Assembly: GCA_005191425.1 (NCBI GenBank)
Contig: SUPR01000159.1
Location: 1 to 6,174, forward strand
Length of the DNA: 6,174 bases
Direction of reading: 5' to 3'
From: Candidatus Helarchaeota ASGARD archaeon Hel_GB_B
GTDB taxonomy: Archaea; Asgardarchaeota; Lokiarchaeia; Helarchaeales; HEL-GB-B
The position numbers and the translations under genes are program-made. Numbering within the stretch: position 1 is the stretch's first letter; the number at the start of each line of letters is the position of its first letter. The notes beneath the pieces were generated by a model. That model was given only the letters and a program-made list of their open reading frames with translations, was not told the origin of the DNA and did not search any database. Below are positions 1 to 6,174 of the stretch, piece by piece.

Positions 1-296
1 ACTTCAACTTGTTTTTTCAATGTATCTACATTATCATCTCTATCCGCCGCAACAATATATAATATTCCTTTTCTTTCAACGTATACCCATCTAAATCCTG
101 CCATATCAATTGATTCAATTCCTCTTATTGAACTCTTATCTTTATTTCCATGTCTCGATAATTCAGCTTCACTAAAAGCATATAAACCTGTTAAAAAAGA
201 GCTTAAAAGATCTGGATTTGTTTTTAATGTGCTATACGAGCGGTGTACTAAACATACACCTCTTAATTTTTCCACAATCCAAATCTCTCTTATCAT
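1..296 (-). CDS. Longin-like (profilin/longin-fold) domain protein; C-terminus truncated by window edge
   Basis: Manually translated from ATG at 296, 98 codons open to the edge: MIREIWIVEKLRGVCLVHRSYSTLKTNPDLLSSFLTGLYAFSEAELSRHGNKDKSSIRGIESIDMAGFRWVYVERKGILYIVAADRDDNVDTLKKQVE. The pattern is a beta-hairpin (EIWIV / GVCLVHRSY), an amphipathic helix (PDLLSSFLTGLYAF), three strands (IESIDM / FRWVYVE / ILYIVAAD) and the start of a helix. This matches longin/sigma-adaptin/Mon1-type beta-beta-alpha-beta-beta-beta-alpha topology. ORF confidence is high; the fold call is by pattern recognition only. Confidence 0.75.
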   Translation of the reverse strand, partial: MIREIWIVEKLRGVCLVHRSYSTLKTNPDLLSSFLTGLYAFSEAELSRHGNKDKSSIRGIESIDMAGFRWVYVERKGILYIVAADRDDNVDTLKKQVE

Positions 297-543: not shown

Positions 544-1110
544 TTAAAATCTCTTTTCCATTTCTATTTTAAATTTTTCAATATAGTCTTTAAACAATTT
601 TCGCTTAATTTCCCAATAATTAAATATTTCTTCAATAAATAGACTTGGAATAAATTTTATTAATTCTTGTTTTAAAATTCGCATTTTTCTAATATATTGG
701 ATTAAATAGAAATTTAATTGTGCATATTGTCTTTTTAAAAATTTTTTTGCAATTTCTATTTCTTTAATATTTATCAAAATATTAATTATATTTATCGATT
801 TTTTAATTAATTCAAAAATTTCATATTGAATTACTTGGATTATTGATTTTATTGTTAGTTTTATATTATTAATTATATCATTTCTTGATTTTTCATTCAA
901 TAATTTAAGTCTGGTTTTAAATCTATTTTTATTCTCATTATCATTTAGCTCATCAGAAATAGTGATAGCTAATTCATATAGACTTTTTAAATAATTAGTT
1001 TTGTTATCAAATGGTATATTTAGATTTTCTACTAATTTATCCTTTGGGCGATTCTTTATAAAAATAATTAGATCTTCATCATAATGATTTTGTTGTTTTG
1101 ATTTTGGCAT
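544..1110 (-). CDS. Hypothetical all-alpha-helical protein, 188 aa
   Basis: A 567-bp open frame is very unlikely by chance in ~80% AT DNA. It is co-oriented with its neighbours, is rich in I/K/L/E/N with amphipathic periodicity, and has no Gly, Cys, transmembrane segment or recognisable motif. Confidence 0.75.
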   Translation of the reverse strand: MPKSKQQNHYDEDLIIFIKNRPKDKLVENLNIPFDNKTNYLKSLYELAITISDELNDNENKNRFKTRLKLLNEKSRNDIINNIKLTIKSIIQVIQYEIFELIKKSINIINILINIKEIEIAKKFLKRQYAQLNFYLIQYIRKMRILKQELIKFIPSLFIEEIFNYWEIKRKLFKDYIEKFKIEMEKRF

Positions 1111-1229: not shown

Positions 1230-3854
1230 TTAAGCATAATATCCAATACTAGTTTTAGTTTTTTGTATATTATCAACTGATTTTTTGAACATATTTATCA
1301 TTTCGGGGGTTAAGGAGGGTTTTACAATTTTCATTGCTTTAATAAAATCCTCTTCAGTAATTCTGGTATTAATATCATTATTTAATTTTCTGGTAAAAGC
1401 GATATGGGCTGCTTCACGTGTTAATTTTTCTAAATCTGAGCCCGTGTAATAATTTGTTTTTTCAGCAATAATAGAAAAATTGAAATTTTCTTTAAGGGGC
1501 ATTTTTTTAGTTTTAATTTTTAAAATTTCAATTCTTTCTTGTTCATTAGGGGGTGGTACTATTATAATATACTGGATTTGATTACTAGCTTTAAGAACTT
1601 CTGGAATTCCTTCAAAATTAATTGTCTCACATATAAATAAAACTGGAGTTTCTTTCTTTATTTTTTCAATTTCATTTTGAATAAAAAGAGCGATTTCAAA
1701 TGATTCTATTGTTTCTGCACGTTCTAACAATATTATGGAGGGTGCTACACGTGCTGCATCTCTTATAAATTTTTTAAAATCACGTGGAGTATCTCCTCTA
1801 TATAAAAATACTTTTGATAATTCAAGTGCTGAATATCTGAAAAAATTTGCTTTTGTTTCGGTTGATAGAGCTTCAGCTAAAAGAGTTTTTCCAGTACCAG
1901 GTAAGCCATAAATAATTATACCTTTTTTAGGATTTATACCAAATTCAATTGATTCTTTATAATGAATTAATGGTTGAGCAACATGTTTTATTAAAAATTC
2001 TTTAACATCTTTTAATCCGCCTATATCATCCCAATAAACTGGGTTTATAATATGTTTTACAGGGGTTTTTCCAGTTCTAGAATATTTTTCAAAAGTTTCA
2101 TTAAATTCTTCAATATCTTCTGTTGATAGATCTGGATTAGTTAATTCAATAGTATTTAATAAATCATTCATACATATTTTTTCATATTTTCCTTTATTAA
2201 CAGCTTCAATAGCCTTATTTCTTTTAGTGGTATCACAGATATAAGCTATTTCTGCACCAGTATAATTTTCAGTTATTTTTGCCAGATAATCAAAATCAAC
2301 ATCATCAGCTAATTCAACATTTTTAAGATGTACTTTAAAGATTTCTTTACGTGCTTTAAAATCAGGGGGAGGAATTGCTATTCTTTCATCAAATCTACCT
2401 GGCCTTAAAAAAGCAGGATCTATATCTTCAATCCTATTTGTAGCTCCAATTACCAATACTCGATCTTCTGGAGTCAATTCAGAAAATTCAGACAAGAAAG
2501 TAGATAATATTGTTGTTAAATAAGGGTGATCAGTTGTTTTTGCTCTCTGAAATGCTAAACCATCTAATTCATCAAAAAATAAAATAGTTGGAGGATTTAA
2601 TTTAGCAGTCGTAAATAATTCTCTAATTTTCTGTTCACTTTCACCTAACCATTTTGATAATAAATCTGGTGCACTAGCATATATAAAATTGGATTGTGTA
2701 GTGTCCGCTAAAACTTTTGCGATATATGTTTTACCACATCCAGGAGGACCAAATAATAGAATGCCGGTGGGCGCATGAACTCCATACTTCTCATACATAT
2801 CTTTTGAGGTTAACATAGAAACAATATCTTGTAATTGCTTTTTAACAGAATCATATCCACCTACATCATCCCATGTTAAATTACGTTTAGAAATTTTTTT
2901 CTCGATTGCACCATATCTTATTGCAGTTATCTCATATTGCTGAATTAGTGATTTAGTTAAAGATGGAATTATTTCATCAAAAGCATCTAAAAAATATTTC
3001 ATTGAGAGTTTTTTATTACTTTCAAATAATTCTTCTGCCCATTTTAATTCAGCAGTTCTTACCAATTTATATAAATCTTGAACAGAATAATTAACTGTTT
3101 TTTTAGCCAATAGATCAATATCTACATCATCATCTATAGGTTTATCACTCAGTATCTTTTCCAGAATCTCTTTTCTATCTTTTTCATTGGGAGGGTGAAC
3201 ATATATAATATCAGAAATATATTCTTGTTTTAAAATTAAAGGAGAAACTAATTCAGGATTATCAGTTACCATTATCAAAATAATGGGTTTATCAGAATTT
3301 TTTATTTTATGAATTGCACTCATTAATGTTATTAATGGATCTTGCATTCTAAAAGTAGCTAGATATATCTGTTTGGATTCAATAGGCGGAGCAATTATAT
3401 CAACTTCATTAATCATTATAATTGTAGGATCATTACTTCCAATCTCATCGATTTTAGAATTTAATTCTTCAATTTGTCGTATAGATACAATTTCCAAATT
3501 TGCTTTACATTCATGAGCTAAAGCATGAATCAATTCAGTTTTCATACACCCATCAGGACCAAAAAGAATTAATACTTTTACAGGCTCTACTTTTATACCT
3601 TTTTTAGATAATAATAGTGGATTTTGTACTTTCTGGACTAATTCTTTTTTAATATCATATAATCCAATTATATCATTCCATTTTCCCTTTAAATGAGATT
3701 TTGATGGAATAAATATATGTTCACATTCACGCCAATTTGAACAACAATATTTATCAACATAATCACTTGTGAGGCCTTCATTACATGCTTCACATAAGTA
3801 AAATATTTCATTAACAACCTTCTTTTTCTTTAAATATTCACAAAAATTTTTCAT
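1230..3854 (-). CDS. Cdc48/VCP-like classical-clade AAA ATPase with three tandem AAA modules, a Cys-rich N-terminus and a C-terminal HbYX-like tail
   Basis: Each module opens with W(D/N)D(I/V)(G/I)G: KWNDIIGL aa58, TWDDVGGY aa327, YWDDIGGL aa607. Walker A motifs are GPDGCMKT (99-106), GPPGCGKT (369-376) and GLPGTGKT (650-657). The middle module has pore loop SKWLGESE, Walker B ILFFDE, sensor-1 ATNR and second region of homology FLRPGRFD. Each module has a helical lid (PPxxxxRxEI...A.kT.nY(s/t)gxd/e). The chain ends IGYYA. Confidence 0.92.
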   Translation of the reverse strand: MKNFCEYLKKKKVVNEIFYLCEACNEGLTSDYVDKYCCSNWRECEHIFIPSKSHLKGKWNDIIGLYDIKKELVQKVQNPLLLSKKGIKVEPVKVLILFGPDGCMKTELIHALAHECKANLEIVSIRQIEELNSKIDEIGSNDPTIIMINEVDIIAPPIESKQIYLATFRMQDPLITLMSAIHKIKNSDKPIILIMVTDNPELVSPLILKQEYISDIIYVHPPNEKDRKEILEKILSDKPIDDDVDIDLLAKKTVNYSVQDLYKLVRTAELKWAEELFESNKKLSMKYFLDAFDEIIPSLTKSLIQQYEITAIRYGAIEKKISKRNLTWDDVGGYDSVKKQLQDIVSMLTSKDMYEKYGVHAPTGILLFGPPGCGKTYIAKVLADTTQSNFIYASAPDLLSKWLGESEQKIRELFTTAKLNPPTILFFDELDGLAFQRAKTTDHPYLTTILSTFLSEFSELTPEDRVLVIGATNRIEDIDPAFLRPGRFDERIAIPPPDFKARKEIFKVHLKNVELADDVDFDYLAKITENYTGAEIAYICDTTKRNKAIEAVNKGKYEKICMNDLLNTIELTNPDLSTEDIEEFNETFEKYSRTGKTPVKHIINPVYWDDIGGLKDVKEFLIKHVAQPLIHYKESIEFGINPKKGIIIYGLPGTGKTLLAEALSTETKANFFRYSALELSKVFLYRGDTPRDFKKFIRDAARVAPSIILLERAETIESFEIALFIQNEIEKIKKETPVLFICETINFEGIPEVLKASNQIQYIIIVPPPNEQERIEILKIKTKKMPLKENFNFSIIAEKTNYYTGSDLEKLTREAAHIAFTRKLNNDINTRITEEDFIKAMKIVKPSLTPEMINMFKKSVDNIQKTKTSIGYYA
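1269..2042 (-). other. AAA module 3 (aa ~605-862): Walker A intact, hydrolysis motifs lost
   Basis: GLPGTGKT is intact. Walker B reads IILLER (DE>ER), sensor-1 reads CETIN, and the Arg-finger region LKASNQIQY has no Arg. Confidence 0.85.
2079..2879 (-). other. AAA module 2 (aa ~326-592), catalytically intact
   Basis: GPPGCGKT, KWLG pore loop, ILFFDELD, GATNR, and LRPGRFD with both arginines (R484, R487). Confidence 0.92.
2910..3683 (-). other. AAA module 1 (aa ~58-315), degenerate
   Basis: Walker A GPDGCMKT (G>M before K), Walker B IIMINE (D>N), sensor-1 VTDNP, no Arg fingers (LILKQEYISD). The pore-loop-1 segment is shortened or absent. Confidence 0.8.
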
Positions 3855-5587: not shown

Positions 5588-5679
5588 TGTTCTAAACCAT
5601 TTTTTAACTATAATTTTTTATATCCTAATTAATTTTATGATACTAGATTTCCGTTAAATTTAAATAGGTAGTGTATTTT
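5588..5679. promoter_or_regulatory. 92-bp divergent promoter region between two TPR genes; candidate archaeal TATA element at ~5614-5623
   Basis: The two starts are head to head at 5587 (-) and 5680 (+). TTTTTTATAT at 5614-5623 reads TATAAAAA on the minus strand, 27 nt before the minus-strand ATG, and TTTATA on the plus strand. The AT-rich background limits specificity. Confidence 0.45.
5666..5673 (+). promoter_or_regulatory. Possible Shine-Dalgarno-like site (AGGTAGTG) upstream of the plus-strand TPR gene
   Basis: The AGGT core is 10 nt before ATG 5680, in otherwise G-poor sequence. An in-frame GTG at 5671 is an alternative start. Confidence 0.4.
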
Positions 5680-6174
5680 ATGGATGAACTATATAATTCT
5701 ACTGTCAAGATTAAGAATTTATTATCAAATATTAACCTTCCTAATAGAATTTCTATCGAAATCAAGTTTAATATTAATAAAGATTTTGGTGAAAAATTAT
5801 TTAAATTAATTGAAGATCGAATTGAAATTATTAGTAAATTAGATGATAAAAGTTTAGATAATATTGAATTAAATTTTGAGATTGATTTAATAAAAATATT
5901 ATTCTATATAGAAAAATATGAAGAATGTATTAAATATTTAATTATTTTAAATAAATTATTTCCTAATAATAGAAATATTCTTTATTATCTAGGATATATT
6001 TATTATGTCATAAATAAATATAATGAATCTATTTCTTATTTTAAACAATTATTAAAATTATCACCCAGAAATCCACAAATCTATAACCAAATTGCTTTAA
6101 TTTATTGGGCTATGAACCAACCTCAAAGGGCAATTGAGTTACTTAAAAAAGCAATTAAAATAAATAATAAACAT
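5680..6174 (+). CDS. TPR protein; C-terminus truncated by window edge
   Basis: Manually translated, 165 codons open to the edge: MDELYNSTVKIKNLLSNINLPNRISIEIKFNINKDFGEKLFKLIEDRIEIISKLDDKSLDNIELNFEIDLIKILFYIEKYEECIKYLIILNKLFPNNRNILYYLGYIYYVINKYNESISYFKQLLKLSPRNPQIYNQIALIYWAMNQPQRAIELLKKAIKINNKH. TPRs lie at aa ~64-97 (degenerate), 98-131 and 132-165. Confidence 0.88.
   Translation, partial: MDELYNSTVKIKNLLSNINLPNRISIEIKFNINKDFGEKLFKLIEDRIEIISKLDDKSLDNIELNFEIDLIKILFYIEKYEECIKYLIILNKLFPNNRNILYYLGYIYYVINKYNESISYFKQLLKLSPRNPQIYNQIALIYWAMNQPQRAIELLKKAIKINNKH

What the first reader, a model, noticed from the sequence alone, without database searches (positions are those of the whole stretch)
1230..3854. 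Cdc48-like AAA ATPase with three tandem AAA modules (candidate three-tier ring)
Seen: three complete AAA modules (aa ~58-315, ~326-592, ~605-862), each with W-D-D-I-G-G start, Walker A, Walker B position and helical lid, joined by ~10-15-aa linkers. Established: classical-clade AAA proteins have one module (PAN/Rpt, FtsH, Vps4) or two (Cdc48/p97/VAT, NSF, Pex1/6, Rix7). I know of no characterised three-module member of this clade. Inference: this is a hexamer with three stacked rings and an extended central channel. A side-by-side 2x3 pseudo-hexamer is less likely, because module 2's ATP site would then need an arginine finger from module 1 or 3, and both have lost it.
Basis: partly seen in the sequence, partly recalled or inferred. 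Interest (0 to 1): 0.82.

Follow-up and report, generated by a model that had tools for sequence, protein, structure and literature searches.

The report
Asgard three-module AAA unfoldase with partners
This Asgard-archaeal gene really does encode a protein-unfolding ATPase with three motor-like modules in a row, of which only the middle one can work; it belongs to a small conserved family that keeps a proteasome-docking tail and its own helical-repeat partner gene, and no protein built this way appears to have been studied.

Summary
Observation confirmed. Window 1230-3854 (-) is one intact 874-aa gene with three PF00004 AAA modules (aa 57-315, 326-592, 606-864). Only module 2 has Walker A and B, pore loop, sensor 1 and arginine fingers. 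It is not an assembly artefact: full-length relatives occur in other Asgard MAGs (Helarchaeota, Sifarchaeum). Borrarchaeum has four-module versions in which the active module is duplicated. The family is rare: 8 of 400 Asgard genomes and 7 other species among 185,579.

New here:
- 19 of 20 complete C-termini end in an HbYX motif, like PAN.
- Four cysteines in the N-terminal 57 aa are invariant.
- A TPR/solenoid partner (P0002 family) is encoded beside the ATPase in nearly every locus, fused or split. The whole cassette is duplicated in this genome.

Best reading (about 0.5): a hexamer of three stacked rings (scaffold, motor, ATP-binding collar) that docks on the 20S proteasome and is fed by the TPR partner. 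Stacking is inferred, not shown.

It is not a Cdc48 family member. Chains with 3 to 6 classic AAA modules are recurrent in metagenomes (33 of the top 150 representatives), and this scan has flagged such proteins before, including this genome's paralogue. The architecture alone is therefore less exceptional than claimed, but I found no published study of one.

The parts
1230..3854 (-). Gene for the 874-aa three-module AAA ATPase (P0001), about 100 kDa
3684..3854 (-). N-terminal 57 aa with four invariant cysteines (C5, C21, C37, C44); probable metal-binding knot, no known family
   Evidence: Invariant in the 3- and 4-module forms. No Pfam hit. AF2 pLDDT about 50.
2910..3683 (-). Module 1 (aa 58-315): pseudo-ATPase. 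P-loop GPDGCMKT (3537-3560) and Walker B position IMINEVD (3399-3419). Pore loop 1 is deleted and the arginine fingers are replaced by LKQEYIS.
2079..2879 (-). Module 2 (aa 326-592): the only complete motor. Walker A 2727-2750, pore loop SKWLGESE 2634-2657, Walker B 2562-2585, sensor 1 2433-2447, arginine fingers 2385-2408.
   Evidence: It aligns with p97 D2 at rmsd 1.9 A over 257 residues, Z 29.3.
1263..2039 (-). Module 3 (aa 606-864): Walker A intact (1884-1907), Walker B lost (SIILLERAE, 1713-1739), CET in place of sensor 1, no arginine fingers, pore-loop-2 segment deleted. Probably binds ATP without hydrolysing it.
1233..1241 (-). C-terminal Y-Y-A, an HbYX-type tail (stop codon 1230-1232)
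   Evidence: The pattern is present in 19 of 20 complete family C-termini, against 4.8% of this genome's ORFs of at least 150 aa. Criterion from PMC3493965.
3902..5587 (-). P0002, 561 aa: helical N-terminus, four TPRs (aa about 93-260) and a C-terminal helical-repeat half. Conserved partner gene, 47 nt upstream of the ATPase gene.
   Evidence: Complex prediction gave weak support.
544..1110 (-). P0003, 188 aa, all-helical, no family. Downstream cassette member in some loci.
   Evidence: 51% identical copy after the C104 paralogue and 46% in L017; absent in L012.
5671..6174 (+). P0004, divergently transcribed TPR protein (cut by the contig end). Orthologue of the roughly 342-aa TPR gene in related loci.

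Best explanation
P0001 is an intact member of a small Asgard-only family of multi-module classic-clade AAA unfoldases. I read it as a homohexamer of about 600 kDa with three stacked rings. Ring 1, capped by a four-cysteine knot, has no pore loop. In this subgroup its P-loop is damaged, so it serves as an entry vestibule and docking platform. Ring 2 is the only motor and pulls the substrate through the axial channel. Ring 3 binds ATP without hydrolysing it. Like NSF D2, it would hold the hexamer together and act as a collar. Its HbYX tails (Y-Y-A) insert between 20S alpha subunits, so that the unfolded chain passes into the proteasome. The upstream TPR/solenoid protein P0002, and perhaps P0004 and P0003, is a dedicated cofactor that recruits substrates or regulates the machine. 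Shown: gene integrity, module anatomy, family conservation, tail conservation and gene linkage. Inferred: hexamer, stacking, 20S docking and cofactor role.
For: Anatomy and family: three PF00004 modules are present and the motif states are conserved across 15 full-length homologues. Each positional module forms its own clade with 100% support across the 3- and 4-module forms, so the build is ancestral.

Stacking:
- Module 2 alone combines Walker A and B, sensor 1, both arginine fingers and the KWLG pore loop, all invariant. This set only makes sense if module 2 neighbours another module 2.
- Module 1 has lost pore loop 1 and module 3 has lost pore loop 2.
- Borrarchaeum and Sifarchaeum orthologues have four modules: the same module 1 and module 3 plus tail, with the active module duplicated. 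A stack can take an extra tier, whereas a closed six-position ring cannot take an extra module.
- FtsH-type proteins with 3 or 4 AAA modules before one M41 peptidase exist.

20S docking:
- The HbYX pattern occurs in 19 of 20 complete C-termini although the preceding 10 residues average 34% identity. Background is 4.8% of own ORFs.
- This genome's PAN ends in GFYS, like the subgroup-2 tails.
- The genome holds five proteasome subunit genes.
- HbYX governs 20S activation by archaeal PAN, Cdc48 and AMA (PMC3493965).

Partner:
- A homologue of the P0002 C-half lies directly upstream of the ATPase gene in 12 of 13 distinct loci with upstream sequence. The TPR half is fused to it, or encoded nearby, in all branches including the 4-module loci.
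- The whole cassette is duplicated in this genome.
- Complex prediction of ATPase aa 1-320 with P0002 gave weak support. The score was 0.48 against a best control of 0.09. That mark was reached by 58 of 80 solved complexes and 2 of 110 mismatched pairs, but at 0.60 or under by only 7 of those 80 and by both mismatches that passed. The runs agree in at least 92% of contacts and the partner's pLDDT is at least 85. My own alignments were used, so these counts hold only roughly.
Against: - No oligomer could be modelled or observed. The AF2 monomer has pTM 0.40, and its module pairs superpose on p97 D1-D2 only at about 10 A rmsd.
- A dead ring between the motor and the 20S has no studied precedent.
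- The loose HbYX pattern occurs in about 5% of proteins, and one family member (P0008) ends Y-I-G.
- TPR domains often bind C-terminal peptides, so the tail might serve the partner rather than the 20S.
- Single chains with 5-6 classic AAA modules exist. These would more naturally lie side by side, so tandem modules need not stack.
- The complex score is in the range that is more often wrong than right unless the guess was likely beforehand.
Confidence: 0.5

Rival explanations
1. Same stacked hexamer, but a stand-alone remodelling or segregase machine that works with its TPR partner and does not feed the proteasome. The aromatic tail would be bound by the TPR groove (as Hsp70/Hsp90 tails are by TPR co-chaperones, or the p97 tail by PUB/PUL domains), or would serve ring packing.
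For: The TPR region (aa 84-274) resembles peptide-binding TPR domains such as YrrB, HOP and CHIP. Partner linkage is stronger than any direct link to proteasome genes, since no proteasome gene lies in any of the loci. A dead ring 3 separates the motor from any docked protease.
Against: The HbYX ending is kept in branches where the partner is split or differently arranged, and it matches this genome's own PAN tail. The motif is essentially confined to this family among the 33 proteins with three or more modules that were surveyed (only one other, P0148, ends in a matching pattern, F-Y-K).
Confidence: 0.25
2. Side-by-side arrangement: two chains form one planar pseudo-hexameric ring of 2 x 3 modules, as single-chain AAA+ rings do in dynein or midasin.
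For: The linkers of 10-13 aa would allow it. Chains with 5-6 classic modules exist in databases. In subgroup 2, module 1 keeps Walker A and B but no arginine finger of its own, and in a planar ring it could borrow one from module 2.
Against: Only 2 of 6 ring positions would carry a pore loop. The best-conserved ATP site (module 2) would face module 3, which has no arginine finger. Four-module orthologues with identical end modules cannot close a six-position ring. The monomer model shows no confident lateral packing (pTM 0.40).
Confidence: 0.07
3. In this genome the two paralogues (window copy and C104 copy, 70% identical) co-assemble into a hetero-hexamer, as Pex1/Pex6 or Rpt1-6 do.
For: There are two intact copies with the same motif states.
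Against: Each copy has its own diverged partner genes (50% and 51% identity), which suggests two parallel machines. Only one family hit was listed for each of the other genomes surveyed, although those tables are truncated or pattern-limited and do not give copy numbers.
Confidence: 0.08
4. Assembly chimera, gene fusion artefact or decaying pseudogene.
For: The contig is only 6.2 kb, from a MAG with 4.9% contamination.
Against: The frame is uninterrupted. Fifteen independent full-length homologues from other assemblies share the same three modules, some on contigs of 0.3-1.4 Mb. The dead modules are themselves conserved: mean pairwise identity is 56% for module 1 and 50% for module 3.
Confidence: 0.01

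Closest known systems
Archaeal Cdc48/VAT with the 20S proteasome (Forouzan et al. 2012, PMC3493965; Barthelme and Sauer, from my own knowledge)
   Same: Multi-ring classic-clade AAA unfoldase with a C-terminal HbYX tail. The best structural matches are p97/Cdc48 (Z 28-30).
   Different: It has three modules, not two. A 57-aa cysteine knot stands in place of the double-psi-barrel N domain. The ring next to the protease is catalytically dead. It scores below the TIGR01243 cut-off and its modules lie outside the Cdc48 D1 and D2 clades.
PAN / Rpt1-6 proteasome-activating nucleotidases
   Same: HbYX tail; subgroup-2 tails match this genome's PAN tail (F-Y-S). There is a single active motor ring with a KW/Y-x-G pore loop.
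   Different: There is no coiled-coil/OB N-terminus and there are two extra pseudo-ATPase rings. It scores below the TIGR01242 cut-off (380.5 against 500).
NSF (D2) and Pex1/Pex6 (D1): type II AAA proteins with one non-hydrolysing ring (own knowledge)
   Same: A degenerate AAA ring is kept for assembly or docking next to an active ring. Module 3 keeps Walker A but no catalytic residues.
   Different: Here two dead rings sandwich the active one. There is no homology beyond the clade.
Four-module relatives in Ca. Borrarchaeum and Ca. Sifarchaeum (P0011-P0015; loci L014, L023)
   Same: Same cysteine knot, module 1, module 3, HbYX tail and neighbouring P0002-type genes. They are 40% identical over 99% of the query.
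   Different: The active module is duplicated, giving two complete motors. Module 1 keeps GPDGCGKA and a DE Walker B.
Other unstudied proteins with three or more classic AAA modules, such as the Ca. Altiarchaeum 1019-aa 'CDC48 family' protein (P0126/P0281), Marinobacter WP_285388223.1 (5 modules), and bacterial cases flagged earlier by this scan
   Same: Three or more tandem PF00004 modules on one chain.
   Different: They are not members of this family: the N+D1 profile finds the family only in Asgard genomes. The Altiarchaeum protein has three fully equipped modules. Among these proteins, the dead-active-dead pattern together with an HbYX tail was seen only in the Asgard family members (one other, P0148, has an F-Y-K ending without that pattern).

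Membership tests
Classic-clade AAA (Pfam PF00004 with AAA_lid_3) | Match to PF00004 above the gathering score, three separate times | tested here: met
   Scanned alone, the modules score 49.4, 130.8 and 57.9 bits against a cut-off of 21.2.
Classic-clade AAA (Pfam PF00004 with AAA_lid_3) | Complete catalytic set in every module (Walker A GxxxxGK[ST], Walker B hhhhDE, sensor-1 Asn, two SRH arginines, pore loop 1) | tested here: not met
   Only module 2 has all of them. Module 1 has GPDGCMKT and INE, with no pore loop and no arginines. Module 3 has an intact Walker A, LLER at Walker B, CET at sensor 1 and no arginines.
CDC48/p97/VAT (NCBIfam TIGR01243) | Whole-protein score at or above the curated cut-off of 802.65 | tested here: not met
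   485.8 bits.
CDC48/p97/VAT (NCBIfam TIGR01243) | N-terminal double-psi barrel plus beta-clam (PF02359, PF02933) | tested here: not met
   Only 57 aa precede module 1, and there is no such Pfam hit. The two-module Cdc48s of this genome and of the hit list do carry them.
CDC48/p97/VAT (NCBIfam TIGR01243) | Modules belong to the Cdc48 D1 and D2 clades | tested here: not met
   In the module tree, the active module forms its own clade (100/100) apart from Cdc48 D1 and D2. Modules 1 and 3 form separate long-branch clades.
PAN proteasome-activating nucleotidase (TIGR01242 / NF003069) | Score at or above 500; coiled-coil plus OB N-terminus; one AAA module | tested here: not met
   380.5 and 404.9 bits. 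There are three modules and no CC-OB region.
Archaeal proteasomal AAA ATPases (functional class of Forouzan 2012) | C-terminal HbYX, pattern [LVIMGAPFYW][FY]x at the very end | tested here: met
   The protein ends Y-Y-A. The pattern occurs in 19 of 20 complete family C-termini, against a 4.8% background.
Archaeal proteasomal AAA ATPases (functional class of Forouzan 2012) | A cognate 20S proteasome is present in the genome | tested here: met
   Five PF00227 genes on C128, C107 (two), C165 and C133.
Archaeal proteasomal AAA ATPases (functional class of Forouzan 2012) | Tail-dependent binding and gate opening of the 20S | not testable with these tools
   This needs a peptide or full-length activation assay or a binding assay.
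Stacked multi-ring hexamer (type II-like architecture extended to three tiers) | Hexameric assembly with homotypic rings of each module | not testable with these tools
   The complex tool is limited to 1000 residues. The monomer model has pTM 0.40. Only motif logic and the four-module orthologues bear on it.

The most novel reading that the evidence does not exclude
The family is a separate Asgard proteasome regulatory particle. It would be a three-tier (four-tier in Borrarchaeum) unfoldase with a dead entry ring, one or two motor rings and a dead ATP-binding docking collar, paired with its own TPR/solenoid substrate adaptor. It would be the first natural AAA machine with more than two stacked rings and a natural experiment in changing ring number.
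Probability: 0.35. Interest if true: 0.8.

Novelty: new variant of a known kind. Interest (0 to 1): 0.6.

Why it matters
Textbook classic-clade AAA machines have one or two rings. A hexamer with three or four tiers, only the inner ones active, would show how dead rings are reused as vestibule and docking collar. It would also show how far an unfolded chain can be passed passively to a protease. The family gives a compact test system: a 100-kDa protein, a conserved partner, and sister forms with one or two motor rings, in the archaeal lineage closest to eukaryotes, where the origin of proteasome regulators and Cdc48 cofactors is an open question. The census also shows that chains with 3-6 classic AAA modules form a sizeable, unstudied class.

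Tried and rejected
- The AF2 monomer model (pLDDT 78, pTM 0.40) was compared with the PDB by Foldseek and by VIA-align. Only two modules at a time match p97 D1-D2, at about 10 A rmsd, so the model says nothing about stacking.
- The N-terminal cysteine region, P0003 and the C-terminal half of P0002 gave no family by Pfam at E up to 1, NCBIfam or the ESM Atlas.
- The P0002 model (pLDDT 93) matches only generic TPR superhelices.
- P0003 is not a universal cassette member: it is absent after the L012 gene, and the 1240-aa gene there is unrelated.
- Seven literature searches for three- or four-module classic AAA proteins, Asgard Cdc48 or HbYX found no description of this build. Hits were dynein, VWA8 or EccC, which belong to other clades or families. 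The library is partial, so this is not proof of absence.
- Complex prediction was unreachable seven times before the single job ran.
- There are no Rfam or tRNA features in the window.
Full report
**What is there.** The window is a whole 6,174-bp contig (C69) of a 3.5-Mb Asgard MAG with about 23% G+C. Four genes fill it.
- P0004 (5671-6174, +) is a TPR protein cut by the contig end.
- P0002 (3902-5587, -) is a 561-aa TPR protein.
- P0001 (1230-3854, -) is the 874-aa ATPase.
- P0003 (544-1110, -) is a 188-aa helical protein.

A partial gene also lies at 3-296 (-). No RNA genes were found.

Pfam PF00004 matches three separate stretches of P0001, each above the cut-off when scanned alone. The phmmer envelopes are 57-315, 326-592 and 606-864, joined by linkers of 10 and 13 residues. 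A module-by-module alignment with a Cdc48 of the same genome and a 15-sequence family alignment give the anatomy.
- Module 2 is fully canonical and nearly invariant. It has GPPGCGKT, the SKWLGESE pore loop, FFDELD, ATN and RPGR.
- Module 1 has GPDGCMKT and INEVD. The pore-loop-1 segment is deleted (11 residues), and LKQEYIS stands where the arginine fingers should be.
- Module 3 keeps Walker A (GLPGTGKT) and an aromatic pore-loop-1-like stretch. It has LLERAE at Walker B and CET at sensor 1. It has no arginine fingers, and the pore-loop-2 segment is deleted (17 residues).
- All three modules end with the Cdc48-D2-type helix after P-S-L. Cdc48 D1 lacks this helix.

Window coordinates of the motifs were verified by translation.

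**It is a real, conserved family, not an artefact.** Full-length relatives of 870-890 aa, 46-70% identical, come from independent Helarchaeota, Lokiarchaeota and Promethearchaeota assemblies, some on contigs of 0.3-1.4 Mb. Mean pairwise identity is 56% in module 1, 69% in module 2 and 50% in module 3, so the dead modules are under constraint.

In a tree of 59 modules, each positional module forms its own clade with 100% support. The active module is separate from both the Cdc48 D1 and the Cdc48 D2 clades.

A sister group of about 1,170 aa (Ca. Borrarchaeum, Ca. Sifarchaeum marinoarchaea) has four modules. It keeps the same cysteine-rich N-terminus, module 1, module 3 and tail, with two complete active modules that are each other's closest relatives.

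The family is rare and confined to Asgard archaea:
- A search with the N-terminus plus module 1 finds true members in 8 of 400 Asgard genomes, in 4 of 33 families.
- The same region finds members in only 7 other species representatives out of 185,579.

1. Four cysteines (C5, C21, C37, C44) are invariant in the 3- and 4-module forms. No known domain matches this region.
2. The C-terminus is an HbYX-type tail. Using the pattern of Forouzan et al. 2012 (PMC3493965), 19 of 20 complete family C-termini match, against 4.8% of this genome's ORFs of at least 150 aa. The ten residues before the tail are poorly conserved. This genome's PAN ends in G-F-Y-S, like the subgroup-2 tails. The genome encodes five proteasome subunits.
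3. The ATPase is genetically tied to the P0002 family.
   - In the window, in the C104 paralogue and in three other Helarchaeota loci, a TPR protein of 555-580 aa lies 19-74 nt upstream on the same strand.
   - In subgroup 2 the same protein is split. Its C-terminal half sits directly upstream and its TPR half lies downstream on the other strand.
   - In the four-module loci both parts lie upstream as separate genes.
   - In all, 12 of 13 distinct loci with upstream sequence carry the C-half homologue next to the ATPase gene.
   - The whole cassette of TPR protein, ATPase and small helical protein is duplicated in this genome. The copies are 50%, 70% and 51% identical.
   - The C104 copy is the orthologue of the database group. 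The window copy is the more divergent paralogue.

A complex prediction of ATPase aa 1-320 with P0002 gave weak support. The score was 0.48 against a best control of 0.09. That mark was reached by 58 of 80 solved complexes and 2 of 110 mismatches, but at 0.60 or under by only 7 of those 80 and by both mismatches that passed. The runs agree in at least 92% of contacts, and the partner's pLDDT is at least 85. My own alignments were used.

**How it most likely works.** I favour a homohexamer of three stacked rings. The arguments are indirect.
- A translocating ring needs pore loops and trans-acting arginine fingers at every interface. Only module 2 has them, and it has all of them, which fits module 2 sitting beside module 2.
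- In a planar 2 x 3 ring, only two positions would grip substrate, and the best-conserved ATP site would face a neighbour without an arginine finger.
- The four-module orthologues change the number of inner modules while keeping the end modules. That is easy for a stack and impossible for a closed six-position ring.
- FtsH-type proteins with three or four AAA modules before a single M41 peptidase suggest that extra tiers above a hexameric protease have arisen elsewhere. This last point is an inference from the known hexameric FtsH protease ring.

In this model, ring 1 and the cysteine knot form the entry and docking face. In this subgroup its P-loop glycine is replaced and its Walker B Asp is Asn, so it probably no longer binds nucleotide. 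Subgroup 2 and the four-module forms keep GPDGCGK[SA] and DE. Ring 2 is the motor. Ring 3 binds ATP without hydrolysis and carries the tails that would open the 20S gate. The TPR partner would deliver or select substrates.

None of this is shown structurally. The AF2 monomer has good domains (pLDDT 78) but pTM 0.40. Either module pair superposes on p97 D1-D2 only at about 10 A rmsd, whereas module 2 alone fits p97 D2 at 1.9 A.

**Comparison with what is known.** The protein works most like archaeal Cdc48/VAT-20S or PAN-20S, but it is not a member of either family. It scores below both NCBIfam cut-offs, and it has neither the Cdc48 N domain nor the PAN coiled-coil/OB region. Its modules also lie outside the Cdc48 clades. 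The dead rings recall NSF D2 and Pex1/Pex6 D1 (my own knowledge), but here two dead rings flank the active one. I found no paper describing a classic-clade AAA protein with three or more modules.

The architecture as such is not rare in sequence space, however. With module 2 as query against 1.84 billion representatives, 33 of the 150 best hits have three to six modules by my recount. Examples are a 1,019-aa 'CDC48 family' protein of Ca. Altiarchaeum with three complete modules and a five-module Marinobacter protein. This scan had already flagged triple-AAA proteins in bacteria, as well as this genome's paralogue.

**Verdict.** The stacked-ring interpretation is plausible but unproven. The 'Cdc48-like' label is wrong as membership. 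The novelty lies less in 'three modules' than in the conserved package found only in a few Asgard lineages:
- a dead-active-dead order of modules, with one or two active modules;
- a cysteine knot at the N-terminus;
- an HbYX tail;
- a dedicated TPR partner.

I rate it a new variant of a known kind, with interest 0.6.

Noticed in passing
G000 contig C104:6332-11461 (locus L011:3333-8462): A second complete copy of the cassette: a 576-aa TPR protein, an 878-aa three-module ATPase ending G-Y-Y-G, and a 206-aa helical protein. It is 50%, 70% and 51% identical to the window's genes and is the orthologue of the database group.
   Followed up: yes
L014:6001-9507, L023, L024, L026 (Ca. Borrarchaeum and related); proteins P0011-P0015: Four-module relatives of about 1,170 aa. 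They have the same cysteine knot, module 1, module 3 and L/F-Y-S tail, with two complete active modules that arose by internal duplication.
   Followed up: partly
P0027 (1433 aa), P0107 (1210 aa): FtsH-type proteins with four or three tandem AAA modules in front of a single M41 peptidase domain. P0027 also has an FtsH extracellular domain.
   Followed up: no
P0125 (2124 aa), P0131 (2055 aa), P0140 (1631 aa), P0130 (1815 aa, Marinobacter WP_285388223.1): Single chains with five or six classic-clade AAA modules behind N-terminal regions of 400-700 aa. By a crude motif check, most modules have Walker A and B but no RPGR-type arginine fingers. They may be single-chain rings of the classic clade.
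   Followed up: no
P0126 / P0281 (Ca. Altiarchaeum hamiconexum, 1019 aa): Annotated as 'CDC48 family', but it has a 185-aa N-terminal region followed by three fully equipped AAA modules. The same protein was seen on 60 contigs.
   Followed up: no
L013:5053-5982 (+): In a Lokiarchaeota locus, a Gtr1/RagA/Arf-type small GTPase gene (PF04670, E 1e-22) sits 19 nt upstream of the three-module ATPase gene, between it and the P0002 C-half homologue.
   Followed up: no
window 3-296 (-): A partial gene (98 aa so far, running off the contig end) with only a faint hint of a longin domain (PF19036, E 0.058). Unassigned.
   Followed up: partly
G103 and G107 (other Asgard genomes), frames of about 1184 aa: Open frames of about 1,184 aa with generic AAA matches, possibly further multi-module ATPases outside this family.
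   Followed up: no
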